Part shown: piece after piece, positions 5,211 through 61,471 of the stretch
Layout: the number at the start of each line of letters is the position of its first letter
How positions within the stretch are numbered: the first letter of the stretch is position 1
Source: Naegleria gruberi
Taxonomy: Eukaryota
Reading direction: 5' to 3' (one strand)
Assembly (NCBI GenBank): GCA_000004985.1
Contig: GG738858.1
Length of the DNA: 64,000 nt
Notes under the pieces: model-generated
Databases searched by the model: none
What the model saw: the letters and a program-made list of their open reading frames with translations, nothing else
Told to the model about the DNA's origin: nothing
Position numbers and translations under genes: made by a program

Positions 5211-6845
5211 CTACTGATTATTAAAGCAAATAGTATCCATTCTCAAAATATTGATTACAATCTGGATGGCAGTCTGAATGATATGTTTTCTGTTGTAAAA
5301 AGATTCAAGAGGAATGTAAGTGGTTGATGCGTGTTGGAATAACTCACTTCTCTGTATCAATGAAAGAGGCTTTTCATTTAGCGATTGTATAGAACTTGTC
5401 GATTGAATAAACGTCACATATTCCTCATTATTTTTCTTGACTAGTTCTTCTAGTAGTTGAAAGAAGTATCTTTCGTTGAATTGGGGTAGTGAATTCCTCA
5501 ACAACATTTTTGGAATGGTGAGCAGTGACTTGGAGACGAGGGTCACAATAATCTTAAACAATTCATCCTCTTTGTCTTGGGCAAGTGTTTGTACAATATT
5601 AGATAAATGGCATTCAAATGAACCTCCTCCAATTATTGCTGAAATTTCTCCTCTTCCAATTACATGTTTTACATGTCTAATACAATTAATTATTTGAAAT
5701 TCAACTTGATTCAAGTTTTCTTGATTCAATGATTTCAATTGTAGTGTGGAAAATACATCATCATGCATACTATTAGGAAAGTCAAAAGTTAAATCACATT
5801 GCTGACCATTATTCTTGAAAATAGTTTTCATGTTTGAAAGACCATAATTATAGTCTTTGAGATTTTCAAAGCAAGTTGCTATTCCAGTCATTTTCAAAAT
5901 ATCAACAAGTTTGAATATCAAATCCATACTATTTGATTGATAGAAAAATACTGAAACGCCTCTTTCATTCAAAATTTGAATAAATCTTCTACTCAGTATG
6001 TTAAACTGTTTTCCAACAAGTATAATTACATTACAATCTATTTTCATGGCAATATTTTGATCCAAATCACAACTGAGGATACATATTTTTGATTGATTAA
6101 CCTTTTCCTGTTGCGAAATTCTTATATTCAAATTCTGAAGTGATTGTAATGTCAAAGAATTTTTAAATAATTTACTATCATCTATCTTTCCCAAAGATTT
6201 AGAAATATTTAAATTATATTCAGAAATTAAATGTAAATTCTTAAACCCATTTGATGAATATTCAAACCATTCATAAATTAAATTTTTTAAATGATTACTT
6301 TGAATTTGAATATTAATCATTGATTTGATAAAAATTGATAATTCCTCACTCGTTCCAATCTTAATTTTTAATAATGAATTATCTGAATTGTTATTAAACA
6401 TTCTTTCCATAATTTGATGTAAATAATTACAAATGGTATTAATATTTTCATACTTGTTTCCAAATTCTGAACAAATTAAATCCAACAACTCATAACTCAA
6501 CACTAAACATGAAATTGTTCCATCACAAAATTCACTCGCAACACCACTAAACAATGATATCAAATATTGTACTATTGGATTATTAGTTTTAATAAATTCT
6601 AAAATCTGACTTCCACTCCTCGTAATAATTTGACTCTGATGAACATCAGTAATTAATTTAAATTTACCATTCGGACCAAATGATGAGGAAACCTGATTTA
6701 CCAACTTGAACAATTCATTTCTAATTTGAATGGTGGTATTATTATTTAATGTTTTCTGATGACTCACTGATAGAACCATCACTGAATTCGGAGAAAGAAA
6801 TCTCAAGCCTTGATTTTGTTGCATTTTTTCCCGCCCAAATTCCAA
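5211..6845 (-). CDS. Highly divergent group-II chaperonin (TCP-1/CCT)-like protein (544 aa), possibly of the BBS/MKKS-like chaperonin-like type.
   Basis: Keeps the CCT signature spacing: FGPNGKFKLITDVHQSQIITRSGSQIL (cf. LGPKGMDKM...ITNDGATIL). The ATP-binding GDGTT motif is present only as CDGTIS. C-terminal IGGGSFE (cf. VPGGGAxE). Size is the same as CCT subunits. Confidence 0.55.
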   Translation of the reverse strand: MEFGREKMQQNQGLRFLSPNSVMVLSVSHQKTLNNNTTIQIRNELFKLVNQVSSSFGPNGKFKLITDVHQSQIITRSGSQILEFIKTNNPIVQYLISLFSGVASEFCDGTISCLVLSYELLDLICSEFGNKYENINTICNYLHQIMERMFNNNSDNSLLKIKIGTSEELSIFIKSMINIQIQSNHLKNLIYEWFEYSSNGFKNLHLISEYNLNISKSLGKIDDSKLFKNSLTLQSLQNLNIRISQQEKVNQSKICILSCDLDQNIAMKIDCNVIILVGKQFNILSRRFIQILNERGVSVFFYQSNSMDLIFKLVDILKMTGIATCFENLKDYNYGLSNMKTIFKNNGQQCDLTFDFPNSMHDDVFSTLQLKSLNQENLNQVEFQIINCIRHVKHVIGRGEISAIIGGGSFECHLSNIVQTLAQDKEDELFKIIVTLVSKSLLTIPKMLLRNSLPQFNERYFFQLLEELVKKNNEEYVTFIQSTSSIQSLNEKPLSLIQRSELFQHASTTYIPLESFYNRKHIIQTAIQIVINILRMDTICFNNQ

Positions 6846-7203: not shown

Positions 7204-10200
7204 ATGATGTCGGTTCAATCGATAGTGGGAGGAGAAGGTTCTTCTAGAAGGACCAGAGGATCAATTTATTCTTCAATGATTCTGATCATGTCAATTGTGA
7301 TGATGATGATGGTCATTTTGATGGGTCAACAGGAATATCATTCTTGTAGTGCTGTTGTGAATCCAACATGTTTTGGTTTTACCAATAGTTCAGGTTTTGA
7401 ATGTGTTCATCAATTGGGATCATGTATTAGTGATAATACTTGTTTCTTTTCTCCAACAACTTCAATCATTGGAATGGGTAGTAATACCTATTCACAACTT
7501 GGTATTACTGCTTCAAATTTTACTGATTATCCAATTAGAGTCAACTCTACGTACAATAGAATTTTCTATATCAGTAAAATGACAATGACTAATAGTTTAG
7601 TAACAGACTACAATGGAGATGTGTTAATGTCTTCAACTCAAGATCAAAAATTCATTCAAGCCTCCACTGCACTTCCTGCTTTGACAACTATGAATATTGG
7701 TGGTGATTTTCCAATTGCAATTTTAGGAGATGATACCACTACTGCTTTAATCACAACCACTAACAAGATTTATGTTTATGGCGATCAGACAAATAATAAT
7801 TTGGGTAGAGAAACTCTTGCTGATGAGGTTGTTTCCTCTCCTACTGCTTTGGGTTATCAGAATGTTGTTGATGCTTCTATTTCAAAATTGGGTGGATGTG
7901 CAATTCATAGCAATAATGGTGTTGACTTTAATATTACTATTTGGGGACCAGCTGCTAAAACCATGTCCAATGGAGTTGGTTATTTAGCATTGACTAATCA
8001 AGCCATTAATAATGATAATTCTCGACCATTTGTAAAATGTGAAATTATTTCTGCTAAGAATTCAAGTGGTTATGATGTTCCAGCAGTTTTTGTTATGGAT
8101 GATTTGGGTAATTTGTACTCTGGTGGAGCCAGAAGTAATTTGGAAGGTTGTAATCCAACCATCAAAAATGCATGTGACTTTGGTGAATGTTTTGCTGCTC
8201 AAAAGATTTTATCAAGTGTAGATTCATTCAAGTGTTCAGCCACTCATTGTGTTGCTGCAATTAATGGTACAGATATTTATGTTTGGGGAAATAACACAAA
8301 TGGTCAACTCGGTAATTCTGCCTATCTCCAAACACCAACAAGGATTCAAGTGTTTACTCCAGAAACTATAATTCAAGTAACTGCTACTAAGAAAAATATT
8401 TATGCATTAACTGAATCTGGTTTTATTTATGGTATTGGTAGTAATGAAAAAGGTCAATTGGGTCGTTCTCCATCTACTTTCCTCTCTAGAACCTATTTCA
8501 CTAAAATTGTAATTCCAGATCAAAGAAGAAAGATTTGGCATATGGCTGATGGTCCAAACAGTGAACATTTGTTGGCCTTTACTGGCTTCAAATGTGCATC
8601 TCAATACTCAGGTGGTGATTGTTCCACTCCTCTTTTCAACTGTGCAGGTTATGCTCCAAGCGATTCTGCTGTTTGTGGAGGTAATGGTATTTGTGCTGAT
8701 ACTGATTATTGTATCTGTTCTTCTGGATTTATTGGTCAATTCTGTAACACTACAGTTTCATCAGCTTGTTATGGAAAGCCAACAAATTTGGCTTGTAGTA
8801 ACAGAGGTTCTTGTATTGGTGTTGATAATTGTCAGTGTGCCTCACCATTCACTGGCAACCAATGTGAATTGTTCCAAAATGATTTTAATTTTGTTGCAAA
8901 TTTCTCACAATTACCAAACTCAAAGATTTATGATAACTTTAATATTTCTAATCTTGTTATCACCCCTACACTTGGTATTTCCAACCCAGCTTATAATACT
9001 ATTTGGGCCTATACTCAATATACCTCAAAGCTTTATTTGACAGGTCCATCTTCATACAGTTGGCAAGGTAGTCAATTATCATTCGATAAGAATTTTGTTA
9101 CCAATTTGAAACCAGGTTATTATGTTCTCAAATCAGAAAGTATTGCCAATGTTACCAATCAAATAATTGTTGTTAACAATACTTTTACATTTGAAAAGGT
9201 TTCTACATCTTTAACAAATCCACTTACATTAGATCAAACAGGTGTAATCTATGTATCACAGTTTGCATCTGTTGTTGTTTCAGCACTTATTACTGACCCA
9301 ACCTTTGATGCCTCAACATTTGATTATGACTGGCTTTCCAGTAATGATCAAGCTAATTATGTTTCTGTCAAAGCATCCACATCTATTGTCAATAATAATA
9401 AGATTACTTTTACCAATCTTGCATCTCAACTCCTTCCATCAAACTTTGCTGGTACCAATCACACTGTTTTTTTCAAAGTAACATACAATAGATATAGTGG
9501 CGACTCCAATTCATTTAGTGCTTATTTCACAGTTGTCATCAGTACAAAGGCCTATGCCCCAACTATTGCTCTAACTAGATTCCCATTTAGCAGTTATTTG
9601 TCAACAACAAGAGCAACAAGTCTTTCAGCTGTTTTGACCTTCACTGAAACTATTCCTTCAGATTTGGTTATTAGTTACTTGTGGACCTGTGATAAATTTA
9701 CTATTACAGATGCCACACAAGCTGCTTTAATTATCTATCCAGCTCAATTGACCATTGATACTTCATACCAATTCTCCCTGACTGTCACTGTATCATACAA
9801 GGGAGATGTTAACACATATGTTTCTACTTTAAATATCAAAACTCCACCTGCTTTACCAACATATTCTGTTAATACTCAAATACTCAGCATTTCTCCAAGC
9901 GATGGTAGTGGTGTTGCTCTCCTCACCTCTCACAATATCACAGTTGCTCCTCTTCCAGTTTCTGATACTAGAATTCTCAAGTATACTGTCAGATATTCTT
10001 TCAATGCAAGTGATGCTGCATCCTTTAAAGATTTATTATCTCTCAGTTCAACAATTTTGAATGATAGTGCTTATCTTCCATATGGTACTATGACACTTCA
10101 AATCTACATTGAAGACGAATATGGAAACAAATTGACAGCTGGCAACTTGGCTGTTTCAACTCAAAATATTGACTTTAGTTCACTTGCTAATATTATTAAC

Positions 10201-12732
10201 ACAAGAGATTTGTCTTTGAATCAAATTGAAACTACAGCAACAACACTCAATTCTGCTGCTGACCAAGATACTAAATCCCTAAGAGAAAAACTTTCAGAAA
10301 TTCTTATAGCCAAACTTAATGGTCAATCTTCTTCGACAAGTCAAGCTATTTTGAGTATTTCTCAAAAACCTTCAGATATCACTGCTAAAACTTCTCAACT
10401 CCTTGTTTCTGGTGTTACAACTTTGGGAGGTAATCTCAGATCAATTTATGCAGCAGGTGGTGAAGCAGATAAAATAGCTAGTGCCTTGACTGGTTCATTG
10501 TCAAACATTGTTGACAACAAGAATATTACTACAAATGAAACCAATAAGGATATTACCAATTCTTTGGCTTCTATCTCAAGAGAACTTGCCAAGATTTTAC
10601 TTCCATCCCAAACCTTGTCAATCAGCTCTAATAATTTCAATATCCTTGTTTTTGGATCTTCCTCTACAAAATCCAGTAATTATACTATTGAAGGATCATC
10701 AATTGGTACTCCTGACAACTTTGATGAATATCTTTCTGGTGCCACTTCATCACTTAACTCTGCCTCTAAGGCCTATGGTGTTGAACTTGTCTACTACAAA
10801 TCTTCATTGTTTGAATCAGTTGGAAAAGCCTCTAACAGTACAAGATCTAGTAATATTTTATCATTTGTTGTTAGTGCCTCCACATCATTTGGTAGTGAAA
10901 GTAGATCGACAGTTTCTATCAAGGGATTGACGAAACCTTTGGTGTTTACATTTACTGTAGCTAATGGTTCTACAAATGGATTCGAATGTAAATTTATTGA
11001 CGAAATTAATAATTATTGGAGTACAGATGGTTGTTCCTCTTTGATCCTCAATGACAACACTGTACAATGTTCATGCAATCACGCAACTAAATTCTCTACA
11101 TTCAGATTATTTACTCAAGTTGTATCCCAAGAAGAATATCTTGGAAGTACTGGTATTAGAATTGTCAATGTTATTTTTGGTGCTATTTATTTCTGTCTAG
11201 CTGCTTTGGTGTTCATTGCTTTGATTATTCTCAGAAACATCAATCCTGTAAGATCAAGATACATTGGTCCTTACATTGGTTTGATTGCAATTATGGTTGA
11301 CTCATTGATCATTTCATTCATCCAAAATATTGTAGTTTTATCTTTGGATAAGGGTATATCCAATTCAACTGCCGATATTGCCAATATTAGAAGAATCAGC
11401 GACGGTTTTAACTATTTCAATGTAATCCTTGTCATTCCTCTTTACTTGACCGCTTTCTTCACTTTCTTGGTCCAAATTGTTAGATACTTTATCAAGAGAC
11501 ACATGTATGAATTCATGTCAAATAAGGTTCTTTTCAATGCTCAAATTTATAGAGCTATTACTTCCAAGATTGCCTTTTGGGTTACCTTGCTTTCTTCTTT
11601 GGCAATAATTATGGCTTATTACACCATTTGGGTTGGTTTGGGAGGAGGAAATGTTTTCGTTGTTAGTACAAACACTGCTCAACAAGATAAGGAAAGAATG
11701 ACATTTACATATATTACTTCCCTTTCCTACTTTGGTCTTGCATGGATAATTGCTATCTGTATGGTTGTTATTGCAGCTTGGGATCTTTTCTACATGAATC
11801 GCCATTTATTCACTTCATGTTGTTATTCTCAAGAAGATTTGTTGAAGAAATCCTCTAGCAATCTTAATCAAACTAGAAATAGAGTTGAAAAACTTCTCAA
11901 TATGTTATCTAGAACAAAGAAACAAAAAGTTCAACTTGGAAAGTCTGCATGGTTGACTGTCCCTCAAGTTTACTACTTTACCGATGACAATTTATATTTC
12001 AGATTGGAAATTCACGTCTTTATTACAGCCTTTGTTTTCCTCACCATCAACTATCTTGCTGGTATTGCTGATATTTCAGTAATTTCAGTTGGATTAACCA
12101 ATGCTGGATCCCGTTTGGCTCCTCAAATTGTTTCCCTAATTGCTGGTATTCTCTACACATTCTGTTTGATTGCTGCTTTTGGTGGTGTGATTGTTGTCTC
12201 TTACCTTACTGAAAGACGTAGAAAGCAGTACCATAAGGATGTAGCTCCTCAATCAAAGATGGATGAAGATGAATTGAACATTGTATTGAGTGATAGATTT
12301 GGTAAACCATTGTTTGTTGAATTCTGTCAAAAAGAATTCTCACTTGAAGTAAGTTTTGGAAATTTTAATTTTATTAACACATTTAAATAGAATGTTTATT
12401 TCTATGATGCAATTACTGATTTCCTTAGAAGTGCTGATTCTAAATCAGATGCAGATGTTAAGAATTCCATTTCTGACATGTTTGAAAAGTATATCAAGAC
12501 TGGTTCTGAATATGAAGTCAACTTGCCTAGCGCCTCAAAGAAGGCCTTTATCACAACACACGAGTGTTCACAACCATCCTCCAAGATGGTTAAGGATATG
12601 TTGGACAATGTAATGATTTCAGTCATGTACAATTTGAAGGATACTTACAGTAGATTCTCAATGACTGAAGAATACAAGCTCTACCAACAAAGTAGAGACA
12701 ACATCAGTATGTTGGAAAACAACTTCTTGTAA
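7204..12732 (+). CDS. Adhesion-GPCR-like receptor with a C-terminal RGS domain, about 1.83 kaa. Exons 7204..12348 and 12391..12732; 42-nt intron 12349..12390 (GTAAGT..AAATAG, phase 0).
   Basis: N-terminal signal anchor. RCC1-like repeats (YVWGNNTNGQLGNS, IYGIGSNEKGQLGRS). Three EGF-like Cys patterns (CGGNGICADTDYCICSSGFIGQFC, CSNRGSCIGVDNCQCASPFTGNQC). GPS motif WSTDGCSSLILNDNTVQCSCNHATKFSTF immediately before 7 predicted TM helices. The RGS box starts in exon 1 (FVEFCQKEFSLE) and continues in exon 2 (NVYFYDAITDFL...EYEVNLPSASKKAF...KDTYSRFSMTEEYKLY). The unspliced read-through hits TAG at 12388. Confidence 0.75.
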
Positions 12733-12914: not shown

Positions 12915-15047
12915 ATGTCCACACTCACGCCAAACAACTACTTGAAGCGTAAGCGAAGTGATGAAAACTCACCAACGGACCAAGAGAATGTAAATCCTAA
13001 CAAGAAGACTAGTAAAATCCCAGTACTAAAACACTCTAATAGCTCCTCCTCTCTCAACTCATCAACACTTTCCACCAACAAAACCACACCAGTTAAACCA
13101 ACCTTACCAACAAGAACCAATTCAATCCGAGCAAATGCCACTTCTAAGATTAATATGCCAAAGCCTACATCTACACCTTCCACTAGAGTCTCACACTATC
13201 AAAAAACTACACCAAATAGTACAAATCCAAATGCCAGACAATTCGGTTCTGTCTCTGGTAGAATGCTTGCTCCAGGAAGAACAACCCAACAACAACAGCA
13301 GCAACAACAACAACTTCAACAACAATCGAAGGTTGAACTTGAACAAACCAAGTCTCAACTTTCACTTGTTTCCGAAGAAAATAACCACCTCAAGACTAAA
13401 ATCGATGAACAAACCAATCAACTCAAAGATTTGGGTCAGTTAGAAGAAAGAACAAAGTTCCTCTCCACTCAAGCAAACAAATTCCAAGAAGAAAACTTCC
13501 AATTGAAGTCTACAGTCACATCCCAAGAAATTGAAATTAGTGCCATGAAAGGTGTTCAAGAAAGATTACAATCTGATAATATTGATTTGAGAGTTAAAGT
13601 CAGCTCTTTGGAAAAGGAAGTCTCAATGGAAAAGAAGCAAGCAGAAATGGACAAGGCCACCATTAAAATTCAATACGAAAGTGAGCTTAGAATTCAAAAA
13701 GAAACATTCGAACAGCAAATTACTGAAATTACTGAAATTAAGGATAAAGAGCTTTCTCTCACTAAAGACAGACTCACTAGGGAAATTACCAAGTACAAAA
13801 CTGATTTGGAAAAGACTCAATTTGACTTGAGCTTATCAGTTGAAGATGCCAACTCCAAAGCAGAAAAGATTAGATCTCTTGAAGAAATTATCAGACAACA
13901 AGCAGAAGATATCAAATCTCTTGAGAGTAAGAGACATAAGGATGAAAATGAAAGAAGAAGATTACACAATCTCATTCAAGAACTTAAAGGTAATATCAGA
14001 GTTTATTGTAGAGTCAAGCCTGCCCAAAACTTGAAATGTATAGATTATCCAGAAAATGATGTTGATGAAAGATCCATCAGTGTTCAAGAGGAATCCAGAA
14101 CATCTGCAACTGGTGCTTCAGTTGATGGCAAGAAGGCCTTTTTCGAATTTGACAAGGTATTCAAACCAAACTCAAAGCAAAGTGAAATTTTCCACGAAAT
14201 TTCTCAACTTGTACAAAGTGCACTTGATGGTTTCAAGGTTTGTATCTTTGCCTATGGTCAAACTGGTTCTGGTAAGACTTTTACTATGGAAGGTCCACCA
14301 AGAGATGTAATCTCAAAGCTTGATATTGAATCACAAAAAGAAGTTGTTGGTATGATTCCAAGAAGTGTTGACCAAATCTTTGAATCAGCTGAAAGACTCA
14401 AAGAAAGAGGATGGACTTTCTCAATCGTTGCTAGCTTTGTAGAAATTTACAATGAAACTATTAGAGATTTGTTAGACTCCACAACTAAGGACAATGTAAA
14501 ACATGAAATTAAGCATACTAAAGATGGCTCTACATCAGTAACTGGTATCAAATACGTCAACGTTTCTGGTCCACAACACGTTCAAGATTTGTTAAAGATT
14601 GCTTCCAAGAATAGAGCTGTTGCAGCAACTCAATCAAACGATAGATCTAGTAGATCACATTCTGTCTTTACTTTGCAAATTACAGGAAGAAATGATATCA
14701 CTGATCAAACAACTCAAGGAGCATTGAATTTAGTCGATTTGGCAGGTAGTGAAAGAATTGGTACCAGTCAACCAGCTAACGGTGAAAGAGTTAAAGAAAC
14801 CCAAAACATTAATCTCAGTTTGACATGCTTGAGTAATGTTGTAAATGCTCTTTTGAATAAGTCATCACATGTTCCATACAGAGACTCTAAATTGACCTAC
14901 CTCCTTCAAAATTGTTTAGGCAAAGATGCCAAGACTTTGATGTTTGTTAATATTGACCCAGATAATGTAAATGAATCTCTTCAATCACTTCGTTTTGCTG
15001 CTAAGGTAAATTCATGTGAAGTTAATGCCTCAAGAAAGGTAAAGTAG
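12915..15047 (+). CDS. Kinesin-14 (C-terminal motor, Kar3/Ncd/KIFC type), 710 aa, single exon.
   Basis: N-terminal Ser/Thr-rich and coiled-coil region. Neck IRVYCRVKP. P-loop GQTGSGKT. Switch I SSRSH. Switch II LVDLAGSE. Motor at the C-terminus. Confidence 0.9.
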   Translation: MSTLTPNNYLKRKRSDENSPTDQENVNPNKKTSKIPVLKHSNSSSSLNSSTLSTNKTTPVKPTLPTRTNSIRANATSKINMPKPTSTPSTRVSHYQKTTPNSTNPNARQFGSVSGRMLAPGRTTQQQQQQQQQLQQQSKVELEQTKSQLSLVSEENNHLKTKIDEQTNQLKDLGQLEERTKFLSTQANKFQEENFQLKSTVTSQEIEISAMKGVQERLQSDNIDLRVKVSSLEKEVSMEKKQAEMDKATIKIQYESELRIQKETFEQQITEITEIKDKELSLTKDRLTREITKYKTDLEKTQFDLSLSVEDANSKAEKIRSLEEIIRQQAEDIKSLESKRHKDENERRRLHNLIQELKGNIRVYCRVKPAQNLKCIDYPENDVDERSISVQEESRTSATGASVDGKKAFFEFDKVFKPNSKQSEIFHEISQLVQSALDGFKVCIFAYGQTGSGKTFTMEGPPRDVISKLDIESQKEVVGMIPRSVDQIFESAERLKERGWTFSIVASFVEIYNETIRDLLDSTTKDNVKHEIKHTKDGSTSVTGIKYVNVSGPQHVQDLLKIASKNRAVAATQSNDRSSRSHSVFTLQITGRNDITDQTTQGALNLVDLAGSERIGTSQPANGERVKETQNINLSLTCLSNVVNALLNKSSHVPYRDSKLTYLLQNCLGKDAKTLMFVNIDPDNVNESLQSLRFAAKVNSCEVNASRKVK

Positions 15048-29268: not shown

Positions 29269-30652
29269 ATGTGGAAAGGTTGGAATGATCTTGTGGGCAC
29301 AGTGACTGGTGGAAATCATCACACCTCTACGGAAAATAGTGAAGAAAGTGAGGCATCAAATGAAGCAACAAATAATTCCTCCTCCGTACCATCATCAGAA
29401 TATTACACCAAAGATGATTTTGAATTGATCAATAATAAGGAAGATGCAGAAATACATTTAGTTATTTTAATTGCAGGAATGGGTGCTAGAAAGGGACATT
29501 ACCTTTCCGATTCACTTCTTGTTCCTTTTGGTAAATGGTTTGATATTAACAAGTGTCAACAAGCAATGAAAGAAGAAGTTTCCAATTGTTTCAAATCTTA
29601 TGCAAATGATCAGGTTAAAAAGAGATCTCCTCATATTTTGATTCGATCAATTGATTATTGTTCAACTGTTAGAGAAGAAGGAGGTTATAATGAAAAATTG
29701 AATCTTATTTCAATGAAATCAGGTGTTCAATTCCTTCGTTTAATTGCCAATGAATCAATGATTGATGTTTTAATGTATAATAGTGAAAAAATCAAACAAC
29801 AAATGCAAACTGTAAGTGTCAGGAATTGTTGAAAATTATATTGATGAATTACATTACAGACTGCTGTCAAACAAATTAATGAAATATTTGAGGAATTTAA
29901 GGATGTTCCAATCAAATCAGTTTCATTTGTTGGACATTCACTTGGTTCTGTTCTTGCCTTTGATATTCTTTATCAACATCAAGAATCTGGAAATACTCTT
30001 TTAAAGATGAATCCTAATAGATGCTTTTTAGTTGGAAGTCCACTTGGTTTGTTTTTGACAATGTCAGTTCAAACAACCAACCAATATTTAGAAGCATTCC
30101 ATTGTGTTAATCCTCAAACAAATAAGAAACAATTATTGAAGGAAATTGATGTTTATCACTTGTACCATCCTTATGACCCTGTTGCTTATAGATTGGATCC
30201 TCATTTAGATTCTAGATTTGGAAAACATGATCCTCATAGCTGTATGTTGTTATTTCACATTCTGATTTGTTAATTATTCAATAGTGGAGTATTTTGCTAG
30301 AAGATTTAATCCAAATCATTATGTCAATCAATTCAATAACTATGTAAGTAACACTTTAAAATAGATTATTCGAAACAATTTTCATTAGAAAGCTAAGATA
30401 TTTGGAAATCAAGAAAAGATTGATGAAGAATTAAGTGAACTCCTTAAACAATATGAAATGTATGTTAATTTTGAGAATAATTTATCTAACTTTCTTTATA
30501 GTATTGATTATTGCCTTCCAGTAAACTCTGAGCTTGTTATTAATGAGTATTTGAGTGCTGGTGATGTACATTTGAAATATTGGAACAATACTGAAGTTAT
30601 TTGTTTCATTTTAGAGAAAATGAATTTGATTTCTGCCAACAAATCTGAATAA
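29269..30652 (+). CDS. DDHD-domain phospholipase A1-like protein (PA-PLA1/SEC23IP family). Four exons: 29269..29811, 29860..30244, 30288..30346, 30392..30652. Introns of 48, 43 and 45 nt.
   Basis: Lipase serine motif FVGHSLGSVLAFDIL in exon 2. DDHD-domain end IDYCLPVNSELVINEYLSAGDVHLKYW in exon 4. Donors GTAAGT/GTATGT/GTAAGT with acceptors ACAG/ATAG/TTAG, and phases are consistent. Confidence 0.65.
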
Positions 30653-43205: not shown

Positions 43206-45320
43206 ACTTGAGGTTGAGTTTCTGTTTCTTGATTATTTTCTTCAAGTGTTCCAATAGGATTTTGAGTTTCTTCTTTAGTTTCAATTTTATCGCTAAGCAC
43301 AGCTTCAATCATCTTTGCTGATGTTGGCTCACTAATATCAACAGTTGTAGGAACAGATTTTTCTGTGTCTTTTGCAGAAACTTCTGCCTTGTCTTTGCTT
43401 TCTTTGAGTCTTTTTTGTTCTGCTTTCTTTGCCAAAATAGTTGGAGAAGTTTCTTTGAGGAGGAAAATGTACATAATGATACCTATTAAGGTAAATCCAG
43501 CAAAAATAAACCAAGGAACTGCTTGACTTGTTACAGATACAACTGGAATAAAGAATAAGGAAAGTACAATAGTTGTAACCCACATTGTCAAAGTACTCAA
43601 ACCAGTTCCATAAAGGATTACTTTCTCATTCTCTCCATTGAATACTTCGTGAGCTAGAATATAACACAAAGAGCCAATACCAATATTGAATCCTAAAAGG
43701 AATATACAAATAAAAATGATTGCTAAAATGATCTTGTAATCTGTTCCATTCTCAGAAAATTGAAAAATGAATCCTCCAGCAATATCTGCCAAGAAACAAA
43801 TAGTCATCTAAAAGGGTTAAAATTGAACTCAAAACACGAAACTTACACCAACAAGAGTAAGAGTTTTTCTTCCTAACCTATCAACAAGGAAAATGTTTGG
43901 AAAGACAGTTAAAACCTGCCACATTGAAATACCAAATGATGTGAGTAGTTGATCAAGAGCATCAGTGAGACCTGCACTTTGCATTAAACTTGGGGTGAAA
44001 CTAGTTGCTGATTGAATACCAGTCCATTCCAAAGCCATCATACCATAACAACCAAGTATTAATGGAATAATGACCTTTGAACAGAATAATCTCTTCATAG
44101 CAGCAATGGCTGACATTTGCTCCTGCTTAACTTCTGCAGAGGTATTTGGATCCTTTTCTTTGTTTTCCTTAATTTCCCCAGCATTTGTTGATTGCCTCTT
44201 TTCCTCTAATTCAATATTGTTGGATGTTGATGGAGTGGTTTCCTTACTATCATTATCTTTTAAGAATTGTGGAGACTCTGGAACGATAAACAATATAAGG
44301 AAGAACAATGGAACGCTCCACAAGTTATGGAATGCATGAACAGCTCTCCACATATCAGCAAAACGAACAAAAATTGCAGCAAATGCATAACCCAATGCAA
44401 TTCCTGCAGCCACACCAAGGTTATACATGGAGCCACACAATCCTTGATACTTTGAGTATGGCAACAATTCTGCCACATACATTGAGCAAACAACAGTAGA
44501 AATTCCAGCACCTGCACCAAGGAAACAACGAAACACAATAAGGGATGCATAAGTATAAGAAGCACTTGCTCCAATAGATCCCAACATTGAAATTAGACAA
44601 CAAATAAGCATGCTTGCCTTCCTTCCCAAAAGAGATCCTGTAAACATTGAAAACAAACAACCTGCAAGACCACCAATGAAAATACTACTGGCAAACAAAC
44701 CTTGCAATAAGGTTGTTCCTAAATCTGAAGAGGTACTACTTGTAGATGAAGTGTTATTTTGTTCATTGGTCATAAATAAGGAAAGGGTGTTGGCTTGTTG
44801 AGTTCTGATTTTGAATTTGGTGCACCCACTATTCTGTTGGTTGTTCTTACTGATGACGAGCGAAGAGTGCAACAGGTTCATCAAACTCTTCATATTAAAA
44901 AGTGTCGCCAACAGTTCTTCATGATTTTGATCATTCCAAATGTTTTGTTTCGATGTGGATGATTGTTGAGAAAGTGAACGTTGGGAATCTTCTTCTGATA
45001 ATGAATGAAGCAAATGGTCATCATAGTTATAATTATTACTGATATCTACAACTATTGGTAAATCTAGAACAAATCGATCTACAAAGGATGATCGAAGGCT
45101 GGAGAAGAAGGAAGAAAAACCATTAATATTTACATTATCATAACTGGTAGAACGGATTAAAGTACCATTGGATGAGGAGGATGAATTGTTGGATGAGAAG
45201 AAGGCAGTGGTGGCACTTGAAAGACCACCTCCGATGGTTCCTAAAGCGTAACCAAATACTAAACCACCAAGAATATTGACCAGTACAAGAATAATTGCAA
45301 GAGGAATAGGTTTGGATTTG
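43202..45320 (-). CDS. Major facilitator superfamily sugar-porter-like transporter. Exons about 45320..43847 and 43807..43202, with a 39-nt intron 43808..43846 (GTAAGT..TTTTAG). The N-terminal start is unresolved (no in-frame ATG before TM1; a further 5' exon is likely).
   Basis: TM1 with GGLVFGYALGTIGG (cf. GGxLFGYDxGVISG). Loop motifs GRK, PESPQFL, VDRLGRK. 12-TM hydropathy. Splice joins ...TLTLVG|MTICFLADIAGG. Confidence 0.65.
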
Positions 45321-60334: not shown

Positions 60335-61471
60335 TCAATTTCCCACAACAGCCAACAAACCATCATCAAGAAGAGACTCATTGAGGAAGGGATGGGATAC
60401 ACTAATAAAAAACAAACTGGGCTCATTTGCAAGACCCACTATCTCCTTATCTGAGTTTGTGAGATAAAAAAGTTTCCCTGACTTTGATGTTAAAGCCATG
60501 ACCTTCCTGCTATTACAAACTCTGACAACCTCTTCATTGATTTTGTTGTTGAAACAGATTGTTACATCTTTAACCTTACCATCAACCCACTTAAAAAAGT
60601 AGTCTTTTTCGAGAAAGAGATTAAACTCACAACTTGATCTGACCAAAAACCAATCATCACAACAAATAAGAGAACAGGTAAGTAAAGGCAATGAATTTTC
60701 CATTGAAAATCCAAATTCCTTATTCAAGTCAAACTCTAGAAACACAGGAGTGTTTCCTCCATTCAAAACTCCAGACACAAAAATCTTTAGTTTCTTTGAG
60801 AAAGCAATTGAGTAGTATTGACCACATCCTATTTCTTGCAATTCTTTAACAGACATTTCCTTATTGATAATCAAGGCTTTTTGATTTTTTGTTTTTGTGT
60901 CTAGAAATAATTGGCCTTGGTTTTGCAACCCCGATACCATAAGCTGATCGTCGTCAGACAACATTAGAACGTGGTACATTCCTATGGCGATTTTTTGAAT
61001 AGATTTTCCACCAGGTATTTTAACTTCAGTAATGTTGTAAACATTAGAATTAGGGATAATTCCTAAACAACCTTCCTCATTGAACCCACAACCATAAACT
61101 TTACCCTGTTCCGTCAAGAAAAATGTTTGGTTGTAGCCACAAATAACAGATCTTAAGGGTTCTGATCTCTTATTAAAAAAATCGATTATTTCGAAATCGC
61201 ATTGTTTCTTCACTTCACACATACCAAGCTGCCCAAAGAAATTATTTCCACAACAATACAGAAGAGAACCTTGTCTAATAAAAGTATGAGATGAACCAGT
61301 TGAAATGCCGTCTATTGTTGAAATAGGCAGCTGCAAGATTTTTGGGCTTGATAACTTGGTCTTATTGTCTGATAACAGCTGCCCATCAGTGTTGTCTCCA
61401 TAAACAAGCAAGCTCTTTGAAGCACTACTTAACAATTCATCAACAAATGAATCTTCGAAATCAAAAACCAT
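60335..61471 (-). CDS. RCC1-like repeat protein (378 aa).
   Basis: Repeated YGDNTDGQLL / CGNNFFGQLG / CGFNEEGCLG blades typical of RCC1/RLD propellers. Confidence 0.55.
   Translation of the reverse strand: MVFDFEDSFVDELLSSASKSLLVYGDNTDGQLLSDNKTKLSSPKILQLPISTIDGISTGSSHTFIRQGSLLYCCGNNFFGQLGMCEVKKQCDFEIIDFFNKRSEPLRSVICGYNQTFFLTEQGKVYGCGFNEEGCLGIIPNSNVYNITEVKIPGGKSIQKIAIGMYHVLMLSDDDQLMVSGLQNQGQLFLDTKTKNQKALIINKEMSVKELQEIGCGQYYSIAFSKKLKIFVSGVLNGGNTPVFLEFDLNKEFGFSMENSLPLLTCSLICCDDWFLVRSSCEFNLFLEKDYFFKWVDGKVKDVTICFNNKINEEVVRVCNSRKVMALTSKSGKLFYLTNSDKEIVGLANEPSLFFISVSHPFLNESLLDDGLLAVVGN

What the first reader, a model, noticed from the sequence alone, without database searches (positions are those of the whole stretch)
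7204..12732. One polypeptide combining an adhesion-GPCR ectodomain (RCC1 propeller + EGF + GPS), a 7TM core and an intracellular RGS domain
In the sequence, a GPS autoproteolysis motif (CSCNHATKFSTF) sits directly upstream of seven hydrophobic helices. The C-terminal tail carries a complete RGS box that is split by a 42-nt GTAAGT..AG intron (FVEFCQKEFSLE | NVYFYDAITDFL...KDTYSRFSMTEEYKLY). A receptor that carries its own GTPase-activating domain would be a self-inactivating G-protein switch. 7TM-RGS proteins are known from plants (AtRGS1-type). Combining one with a metazoan-style adhesion/GAIN ectodomain and an RCC1-like propeller is unusual architecture. I cannot tell from the sequence alone whether it has been described before.
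Basis: partly seen in the sequence, partly recalled or inferred. Interest (0 to 1): 0.85.

Follow-up and report, generated by a model that had tools for sequence, protein, structure and literature searches.

The report
Naegleria GAIN–7TM–RGS receptor with RCC1 ectodomain
This Naegleria gruberi gene encodes a large surface receptor with an adhesion-receptor-like outer part, seven membrane helices and a built-in G-protein "off switch" (RGS domain); the reading is correct, but this receptor family was already described in Naegleria fowleri in 2022, so it is a new member, not a new kind.

Summary
Window 7204-12732 (+) encodes one 1,828-aa protein from two exons joined across a 42-nt GTAAGT..TAG intron (12349-12390). 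It has a signal peptide, an RCC1-like seven-blade propeller, two EGF-like modules, a ~450-aa beta-rich region, a complete GAIN domain with a GPS motif (H-A|T), seven TM helices and a C-terminal RGS box.

The splice is supported by three orthologues that read straight through the junction; one is a single uninterrupted ORF with the same downstream kinesin gene. The window is Naegleria gruberi.

The interpretation needs two corrections:
- The 7TM core has a generic GPCR fold but no detectable sequence relationship to adhesion/secretin 7tm_2. Only the GAIN/GPS part is adhesion-GPCR-like.
- The architecture is not new. Bosch, Jeck and Siderovski (JBC 2022, PMC9283941) described 28 "7TM RGS" proteins in N. 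fowleri, several with GPS motifs and EGF/lectin ectodomains. They showed RGS-domain GAP activity on Naegleria G-alpha subunits, some of them self-activating.

I found about 90 sequence clusters of this family; every named member checked is heterolobosean. Seven clusters carry an RCC1 ectodomain, which that paper does not mention.

Most likely function: a receptor-GAP of the AtRGS1 type, not a self-limiting GPCR. Verdict: new member of a known kind, modest interest.

The parts
7204..12348 (+). Exon 1 (aa 1-1715): start codon to the splice donor
   Evidence: First ATG of the ORF; translation; orthologue P0001 aligns over 97% of the product.
7264..7323 (+). N-terminal hydrophobic segment (aa 21-40): signal peptide or signal anchor placing the N-terminal region outside the cell
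   Evidence: Hydropathy peak of 2.43. Orthologue P0001 has an equivalent N-terminal hydrophobic stretch. The ectodomain has 21 N-x-S/T sequons and 31 Cys, against 3 and 7 in the remainder.
7456..8613 (+). RCC1-like seven-blade beta-propeller (about aa 85-470), extracellular
   Evidence: Pfam RCC1 E 7e-14 and WD40_RLD E 8e-26. The AF2 model of this part matches whole RCC1-like domains: HERC2 RLD2 7q40 E 1e-17, TM 0.74; RCC1 1a12 TM 0.67. Model confidence here is only moderate (pLDDT 60-85).
8614..8871 (+). Two EGF-like six-cysteine modules (about aa 471-556)
   Evidence: Pfam EGF_Teneurin and EGF_2 hits are below cut-off. The cysteine pattern is read directly. Orthologue P0122 scores above cut-off, 43 bits.
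8872..10215 (+). Beta-rich region of unassigned fold (about aa 557-1004)
   Evidence: Conserved only in orthologues P0001 and P0122. The AF2 model is all-beta but of low confidence. There is no Pfam hit. Three paralogues carry a REJ domain; their position was not checked.
10216..10596 (+). GAIN subdomain A, helical (aa 1005-1131)
10612..11109 (+). GAIN subdomain B, beta-sandwich (aa 1137-1302), containing the GPS motif (aa 1262-1298, nt 10987-11097). The last strand, TKFSTFRLF, lies in the tethered-peptide position.
11080..11088 (+). Putative autoproteolysis triad H1293-A1294 | T1295
   Evidence: His (-2) and Thr (+1) are present in all 103 strict GPS-motif matches but one, which has H-L-S. 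Position -1 is Thr in 80 and Ala in this orthologue group. Leu at -1 occurs in 12 of the 23 weaker (mostly GPS-only) hits that include the confirmed adhesion GPCRs, which carry L, M or T at -1. Cleavage itself is untested.
11128..12234 (+). Seven-transmembrane core (aa 1309-1677) with a ~58-aa loop between TM5 and TM6
12280..12348 (+). RGS box, first part (aa 1693-1715), ending ...KEFSLE
   Evidence: The Pfam RGS hit spans aa 1693-1811; alignment to human RGS18, RGS7 and RGS8.
12349..12390 (+). 42-nt phase-0 intron, GTAAGT...AATAG, containing an in-frame TAG at 12388
   Evidence: Sequence. Orthologues P0001 (uninterrupted ORF on L001), P0121 (N. fowleri) and P0122 (Willaertia) show no insertion here. 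Two other GTAAGT intron candidates of 39 and 48 nt occur in the window.
12391..12732 (+). Exon 2: remainder of the RGS box (to aa 1811, nt 12678), C-terminal tail and TAA stop
   Evidence: Translation. The EVNL and KDTYSRF motifs align with G-alpha-contact motifs of R4/R7 RGS boxes.

Best explanation
The locus is a Naegleria gruberi member of the heterolobosean '7TM RGS' receptor family.

Architecture. It is a type-I, seven-pass membrane protein. Its extracellular part is an RCC1-like propeller, two EGF-like modules, a beta-rich spacer and a full GAIN domain with a GPS motif. Its cytosolic tail is a canonical RGS box. The architecture is shown here.

Inferred GAP function. By homology with the N. 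fowleri proteins tested by Bosch et al. 2022, the RGS box binds the transition state of Naegleria G-alpha subunits and accelerates their GTP hydrolysis. Several of those G-alpha subunits exchange nucleotide spontaneously. The receptor would therefore hold them off at the membrane.

Inferred regulation. By analogy with plant AtRGS1 and with adhesion GPCRs, engagement of the ectodomain by a ligand, surface or mechanical pull would change 7TM conformation or receptor localisation. This might involve the GAIN domain and its conserved T-x-F-x-x-F terminal strand. That change would relieve or redirect the GAP activity, so the signal is release of inhibition, not catalysed exchange.
For: - Gene structure and domains.
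- Splice: P0001 is a single ORF with a syntenic kinesin downstream. The N. fowleri fragment P0121 reads KEFSLENIYFYDA. The alignment has no gap at the junction.
- RGS: Pfam E 1e-12. Full-length alignment to RGS18, RGS7 and RGS8, E 6e-8, with S-x-E-N, E-V-N-L and D-x-Y-x-R-F conserved.
- Family: 124 representative clusters, about 90 with 7TM plus RGS. Every named member looked up is N. gruberi, N. fowleri, N. lovaniensis or Willaertia magna.
- Published biochemistry: 28 N. fowleri 7TM RGS proteins, several with GPS and EGF. Their RGS boxes act as GAPs on Nf G-alpha2, 3, 5 and 7, with 5 and 7 self-activating. The switch-1 G-to-S mutation in G-alpha2 and G-alpha3 abolishes the GAP effect (PMC9283941).
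Against: - No experiment exists on this protein or its N. fowleri orthologue. The four boxes tested by Bosch et al. have different lengths and C-termini.
- The splice is inferred from homology, not from transcripts.
- Position -1 of the GPS site is Ala (Thr in most of the family) instead of the Leu typical of cleaved adhesion GPCRs, so autoproteolysis is uncertain.
- Nothing here shows how ectodomain events reach the RGS box.
- A GEF activity of the 7TM cannot be excluded. The fold is GPCR-like, and an R-Y pair at the cytoplasmic end of TM3 is nearly invariant.
Confidence: 0.72

Rival explanations
1. The 7TM is a genuine GPCR (a GEF) that activates a G-alpha when the GAIN/tethered peptide is engaged. 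The fused RGS box then shuts off the same G-alpha, giving a self-inactivating, pulse-generating switch.
For: - GPCR-like fold.
- GAIN domain with the catalytic His/Thr conserved and a T-x-F-x-x-F terminal strand resembling a tethered agonist.
- A nearly invariant R-Y at the cytoplasmic end of TM3 and a conserved D-D-P-L-x-F-R-x-E before TM6.
- N. fowleri also has G-alpha subunits with slow exchange, which would need a GEF (abstract of PMC9283941).
Against: - No sequence relationship to any GPCR class with demonstrated GEF activity.
- The best-studied 7TM-RGS protein, AtRGS1, works with a self-activating G-alpha.
- The Naegleria RGS boxes tested act on self-activating G-alpha5 and G-alpha7.
- A GEF and a GAP in fixed 1:1 stoichiometry on one chain would largely cancel unless they were separately regulated.
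Confidence: 0.18
2. The intron is not removed. The protein ends at the TAG at 12388 as a GAIN-7TM protein with a truncated, non-functional RGS stub, and 12391-12732 is not part of it.
For: The intron is a multiple of three and very short. No transcript data were available. Neither product is in the 15-billion-protein collection.
Against: - Exon 2 continues the RGS profile exactly where exon 1 stops.
- Three orthologues are colinear with no insertion, one of them an uninterrupted ORF.
- The donor is a consensus GTAAGT and the acceptor is TAG.
- Similar 39-nt and 48-nt intron candidates exist in the window.
- A 114-codon open frame conserved at about 70% identity with N. fowleri would not persist in untranslated sequence.
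Confidence: 0.04
3. A polycystin-1/REJ-type surface protein (GAIN plus multi-pass membrane region) that acts in adhesion or channel regulation independently of G proteins, with the RGS box serving only as a scaffold.
For: GAIN/GPS also defines polycystin-1-like proteins. Three paralogues carry a Pfam REJ domain, E 4e-28. Some RGS domains are known to have lost GAP activity (de Mendoza 2014).
Against: - There are exactly seven helices with a GPCR fold, not eleven.
- There are no PLAT, REJ or channel-domain hits in this protein.
- The G-alpha-contact motifs of the RGS box are intact.
Confidence: 0.05

Closest known systems
Naegleria fowleri '7TM RGS' proteins (Nf 7TM RGS1-4 and 24 others; Bosch, Jeck & Siderovski, J Biol Chem 2022, PMC9283941)
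   Same: - Same family by sequence: the N. fowleri fragment P0121 is 63% identical over GAIN-B/7TM/RGS.
- Paralogues P0126, P0198 and P0255 are N. fowleri proteins.
- Same layout: large ectodomain with EGF-like repeats, a GPS motif, seven TM helices and a C-terminal RGS box.
   Different: - It comes from a different species (N. gruberi).
- Its orthologue is not one of the four whose RGS boxes were tested.
- Its ectodomain starts with an RCC1-like propeller, a domain the paper's text never mentions (0 occurrences).
- The paper speaks of 'GPS motifs'. The complete GAIN fold is shown here only by modelling.
Metazoan/holozoan adhesion GPCRs (class B2: latrophilins, BAI, CD97, GPR56 and others)
   Same: - GAIN domain of two subdomains with a GPS motif immediately before TM1.
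- The four Cys, the Trp residues, the His and the Thr nucleophile are conserved.
- The terminal beta-strand is in the tethered-agonist position.
- EGF-like modules lie in the ectodomain.
   Different: - The 7TM is not 7tm_2 by Pfam, profile-versus-sequence or profile-versus-profile tests.
- The -1 residue is Ala/Thr, not Leu.
- It carries an RGS box, which no metazoan adhesion GPCR has; de Mendoza 2014 found no 7TM-RGS in metazoans.
Arabidopsis AtRGS1-type plant 7TM-RGS proteins
   Same: Seven TM helices followed by a cytosolic RGS box. The presumed logic is a membrane receptor-GAP acting on self-activating G-alpha.
   Different: - From general knowledge, AtRGS1 has essentially no ectodomain. 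This protein has about 1,300 extracellular residues including GAIN.
- No plant protein appeared among the named hits of a 7TM search of 1.84 billion representatives.
Polycystin-1 / PKD-REJ family
   Same: GAIN/GPS directly before the first TM helix. Some paralogues carry REJ domains.
   Different: Seven TM helices, not eleven; no PLAT domain; no REJ hit in this protein; RGS tail.

Membership tests
Heterolobosean 7TM RGS family (Bosch et al. 2022) | Seven predicted TM helices followed by a C-terminal RGS domain | tested here: met
   Hydropathy and AF2 both give seven helices at aa 1309-1677. Pfam RGS at aa 1693-1811 is above cut-off.
Heterolobosean 7TM RGS family (Bosch et al. 2022) | Sequence homology of the 7TM core to Naegleria members | tested here: met
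   phmmer of the GPS+7TM segment gives 82 clusters at E<1e-10. The 7TM alone hits 94 proteins, including N. fowleri, N. gruberi, N. lovaniensis and Willaertia proteins.
Heterolobosean 7TM RGS family (Bosch et al. 2022) | RGS box is a GAP for Naegleria G-alpha subunits | not testable with these tools
   Only the conservation of the contact motifs S-x-E-N, E-V-N-L and D-x-Y-x-R-F could be checked. Mapping them to RGS4 residues rests on my recollection of the RGS4 sequence and of the RGS4-Gi-alpha1 structure.
Adhesion GPCR (class B2) | GAIN domain with GPS motif directly N-terminal to TM1 | tested here: met
Adhesion GPCR (class B2) | Secretin-like 7TM (Pfam 7tm_2) | tested here: not met
Adhesion GPCR (class B2) | Autoproteolysis at H-L|T/S and tethered-agonist activation | tested here: inconclusive
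   His(-2) and Thr(+1) are conserved, but -1 is Ala here and Thr in 80 of 103 strict motif matches. Cleavage and agonism need experiments.
Plant AtRGS1-type 7TM-RGS | 7TM + RGS with a minimal N-terminus, and 7TM homologous to AtRGS1 | tested here: inconclusive
   The layout of 7TM then RGS is shared. The ectodomain of about 1,300 aa is not. No AtRGS1 sequence was available for direct comparison. No plant protein was seen among the named hits.
Polycystin-1 / PKD-REJ | REJ domain, PLAT domain after TM1, eleven TM helices | tested here: not met
   No REJ or PLAT hit at E<=1. There are seven helices.
RGS domain superfamily (canonical R4/R7-like box) | Full-length RGS box above the Pfam gathering score | tested here: met
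   48.5 bits against a cut-off of 23.9, covering profile positions 4-115 of 117. Best solved relatives are RGS18, RGS7 and RGS8.
RCC1-like domain (RLD) proteins | Seven-blade propeller built of RCC1 repeats | tested here: met
   Pfam RCC1 52.6 bits against a cut-off of 21.7. The model aligns over whole RLDs of HERC2, RCC1, RPGR and UVR8 with TM 0.64-0.74. The model's pLDDT is only moderate.

The most novel reading that the evidence does not exclude
The GAIN domain and its terminal T-x-F-x-x-F strand are functionally coupled, in a discoban protist, to a 7TM that is not of the adhesion/secretin class and whose output is a GAP rather than a GEF.

If so, the GAIN-to-7TM tethered-peptide mechanism either predates the opisthokont adhesion GPCRs or was assembled independently. 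It would also exist as an 'inverse adhesion GPCR', in which force or ligand on the ectodomain releases G-alpha from inhibition. In this subfamily the sensing module would be an extracellular RCC1 propeller, a location otherwise typical of bacterial surface proteins.
Probability: 0.2. Interest if true: 0.65.

Novelty: new member of a known kind. Interest (0 to 1): 0.3.

Why it matters
As found, it adds one uncharacterised N. gruberi gene to a family already published for N. fowleri. The product is absent from the protein collection searched. It also documents three details that the 2022 paper does not state:
- The "GPS motif" sits in a complete GAIN fold.
- The family conserves an H-T/A|T-x-F site across about 90 clusters.
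- A recurrent subfamily uses an RCC1-like propeller as its outermost domain.

The wider question is how adhesion-type ectodomains became wired to G-protein control, and whether receptor-GAP signalling is an old alternative to receptor-GEF signalling. This family is a tractable place to test it. N. gruberi is non-pathogenic and easily cultured (general knowledge, not checked here). The assays already exist for N. fowleri, where these receptors have been proposed as possible pharmacological targets.

Tried and rejected
I used the contiguous exon-1 segment instead.
- The second word-index homology search with the C-terminal 837 aa returned only one hit, because low-complexity words filled the candidate list.
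- Anantharaman 2011 (PMC3396428) and Bradford 2013 (PMC4871593) are not held. I could not check whether they already noted GPS-7TM-RGS in Naegleria.
- The 2025 choanoflagellate GPCR survey has nothing on this family.
- Looking up the N. gruberi contig through the kinesin product failed, so the public gene model at this locus could not be inspected.
- The ectodomain AF2 model has mean pLDDT 56.5. The EGF region and the aa 557-1004 region cannot be interpreted from it. Only the propeller match was used.
- I considered and rejected a paralogue cluster in the window. tblastn with all domains finds only the gene itself and a weak RCC1-like hit near 61 kb.
- I considered and rejected class-B membership of the 7TM and polycystin-1 membership.


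Full report
**What is in the sequence**

The + strand has an ORF from the ATG at 7204 to a TAG at 12388-12390. The last 42 nt before and including that TAG (12349-12390) read GTAAGTTTTGGAAATTTTAATTTTATTAACACATTTAAATAG. This is a consensus donor, an AG acceptor and a length divisible by three. Skipping them joins ...FVEFCQKEFSLE to NVYFYDAITDFL... and continues for 113 more codons to the TAA at 12730-12732. The product is 1,828 aa.

**Is the splice real?**

No transcript data were available, so the argument is comparative.
- The Pfam RGS model aligns as one stretch at aa 1693-1811 (profile 4-115 of 117, E 1.3e-12, above the curated cut-off). It therefore runs straight across the junction at 1715/1716.
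- The closest full-length relative is P0001, 44% identical over 97% of the product. It is encoded on a metagenome contig as one uninterrupted 1,822-codon ORF. A kinesin gene follows it, as in the window, where 12915-15047 is a kinesin.
- P0001 reads KEFSLENFDMYF at the junction. The N. fowleri fragment P0121 reads KEFSLENIYFYDA, and the Willaertia magna orthologue P0122 reads KEFSIENLFMFDD. None has a 14-residue insertion.
- A scan of the window for GTAAGT introns flanked by long open frames finds two others, of 48 nt and 39 nt, so 42 nt is in range here.

I regard the splice as very likely, but not demonstrated.

**Organism**

The downstream kinesin product is identical to Naegleria gruberi kinesin-14, XP_002679253.1. 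Neither the spliced nor the unspliced product of the gene under study is in the 15-billion-protein collection. No protein more than 63% identical was returned by two homology searches. The public gene model is therefore either missing, different or not held. I could not inspect it.

**Domains**

- **Signal segment.** aa 21-40 are strongly hydrophobic.
- **Topology.** The roughly 1,270 residues that follow carry 21 N-glycosylation sequons and 31 cysteines. The remaining 520 residues carry 3 and 7. This is consistent with an extracellular N-terminal part.
- **RCC1 propeller.** RCC1 repeats score above the Pfam cut-off. The ectodomain model has low overall confidence, but it superposes over complete RCC1-like propellers: HERC2 RLD2 at E 1e-17 and TM 0.74, and RCC1 itself at TM 0.67.
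- **EGF-like modules.** Two six-cysteine modules follow. They are below the Pfam cut-off here but above it in the Willaertia orthologue.
- **Unassigned region.** aa 557-1004 are beta-rich, conserved only among orthologues, and of unassigned fold.
- **Terminal strand.** The last strand is K1296-L1302, right after H1293-A1294-T1295. It sits where adhesion GPCRs have their tethered peptide.

**The 7TM core**

At the sequence level there is no link to adhesion/secretin receptors:
- No Pfam 7TM family is hit in the window's GAIN-7TM segment or in its 25 relatives scanned with it.
- A family profile of GPS+7TM matches solved adhesion GPCRs only from the GPS motif into the start of TM1.
- A 7TM-only profile of 68 family sequences, compared with six genuine GPS+7tm_2 receptors, gives hhalign probability 0.1%. 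That adhesion profile is thin.

The ectodomain is therefore adhesion-GPCR-like. The membrane core is a lineage-specific GPCR-fold domain.

**The RGS box**

The spliced box aligns end to end with human RGS18, RGS7 and RGS8 at E 6e-8. It keeps the S-x-E-N, E-V-N-L and D-x-Y-x-R-F motifs. By my recollection of the RGS4-Gi-alpha1 structure, these contain the G-alpha switch-contact residues Glu87/Asn88, Asn128 and Asp163/Arg167. It looks like a competent GAP.

**The family**

- A full HMMER scan of 1.84 billion representatives with the GPS+7TM segment found 124 clusters, 82 of them at E<1e-10.
- About 90 clusters have both the 7TM and an RGS box, 44 have EGF-like regions and 7 have an RCC1 region (five of the RCC1-bearing ones were re-checked against Pfam).
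- Every named member I looked up is from N. gruberi, N. fowleri, N. lovaniensis or Willaertia magna. The rest are metagenomic.
- The GPS site is strikingly uniform at C-x-C-x-H-T-T-x-F in 80 of 103 motif matches. It is H-A-T in this orthologue group. Leu at -1 occurs in 12 of the 23 weaker (mostly GPS-only) hits that include the confirmed adhesion GPCRs, which carry L, M or T at -1.
- Three paralogues carry REJ domains.

**What is known**

Bosch, Jeck and Siderovski (J Biol Chem 2022, PMC9283941) reported the following for N. fowleri:
- It expresses 28 seven-transmembrane proteins with C-terminal RGS domains.
- Several have EGF-like repeats and lectin domains in the ectodomain.
- The RGS boxes of three of them are GAPs, with selectivity, for Nf G-alpha2, 3, 5 and 7.
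- G-alpha5 and G-alpha7 are self-activating.

De Mendoza et al. 2014 had already noted 7TM-RGS architectures in many non-metazoan lineages. The orthologue of the present gene is not among the four boxes tested; lengths and C-termini differ. "RCC1" does not occur in the 2022 paper. No held paper combines Naegleria with "GAIN domain" or with RCC1 plus RGS in this sense. Two older comparative papers could not be read.

**Mechanism**

- **Shown:** the architecture and the family membership.
- **Inferred from homologues:** the RGS box accelerates GTP hydrolysis on one or more Naegleria G-alpha subunits.
- **Inferred by analogy with AtRGS1:** the receptor constitutively restrains self-activating G-alpha, and an extracellular event relieves this.
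a GEF-competent GPCR that switches itself off. This is not excluded. It has no positive support beyond the fold, the conserved motifs at helix ends and the tethered-peptide-like strand. I give it about 0.18.
- **Still open:** whether the GAIN domain is cleaved. The catalytic His and Thr are conserved, but the -1 residue is atypical.

**Verdict**

It is wrong about the class of the 7TM, and its mechanism is probably inverted. The architecture has been in the literature since 2022. The gene is a new, unstudied member with an RCC1-propeller ectodomain that defines a small subfamily. Interest is 0.3. The most novel reading still open is GAIN/tethered-peptide control of a GAP receptor outside the adhesion-GPCR class. 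I put its probability at about 0.2.

Noticed in passing
window 12915-15047 (+): A 710-aa kinesin-14 (Pfam Kinesin E 5e-104) that is identical to N. gruberi XP_002679253.1, which identifies the window's organism. The metagenome orthologue contig L001 has the same 7TM-RGS then kinesin gene order.
   Followed up: yes
window 29812-29859 (+) and 43808-43846 (-): Two further candidate very short GTAAGT...AG introns (48 nt and 39 nt), each flanked by long open frames of 186/137 and 514/201 codons. The genes they belong to were not examined.
   Followed up: partly
window 61013-61405 (-): A weak tblastn match (E 1e-5, 32% identity) to the RCC1 region, probably an unrelated RCC1-repeat gene on the minus strand.
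   Followed up: no
window 5211-6845 (-): A 544-aa ORF upstream on the opposite strand with a TCP-1/cpn60 chaperonin match. The best matched stretch covers profile positions 3-232 of 490 (two matched stretches in all), so the coverage and gene structure were not resolved.
   Followed up: partly
window 7204-12732 (whole gene): Neither the spliced nor the unspliced product is in the 15-billion-protein collection, although neighbouring N. gruberi proteins and paralogues are. The public gene model here may be missing or different.
   Followed up: partly
family alignments A2 and A4 (window aa ~1345-1665): Nearly invariant family motifs of unknown role: Q-P-V-K-S-R just after TM1, R-Y at the cytoplasmic end of TM3, D-D-P-L-x-F-R-x-E before TM6, and F-G-G in TM7.
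   Followed up: no
paralogues in alignment A2 (not in the window): Three family members carry a Pfam REJ domain (E 4e-28), the domain that precedes GAIN in polycystin-1. This links the family's ectodomain repertoire to PKD1-like proteins as well as to adhesion GPCRs.
   Followed up: no
one search hit list: Apart from the orthologues, the best matches to the RCC1 region are large bacterial secreted or surface RCC1-repeat proteins. An extracellular RCC1 propeller is a bacterial-style usage. The origin of this domain was not investigated.
   Followed up: no
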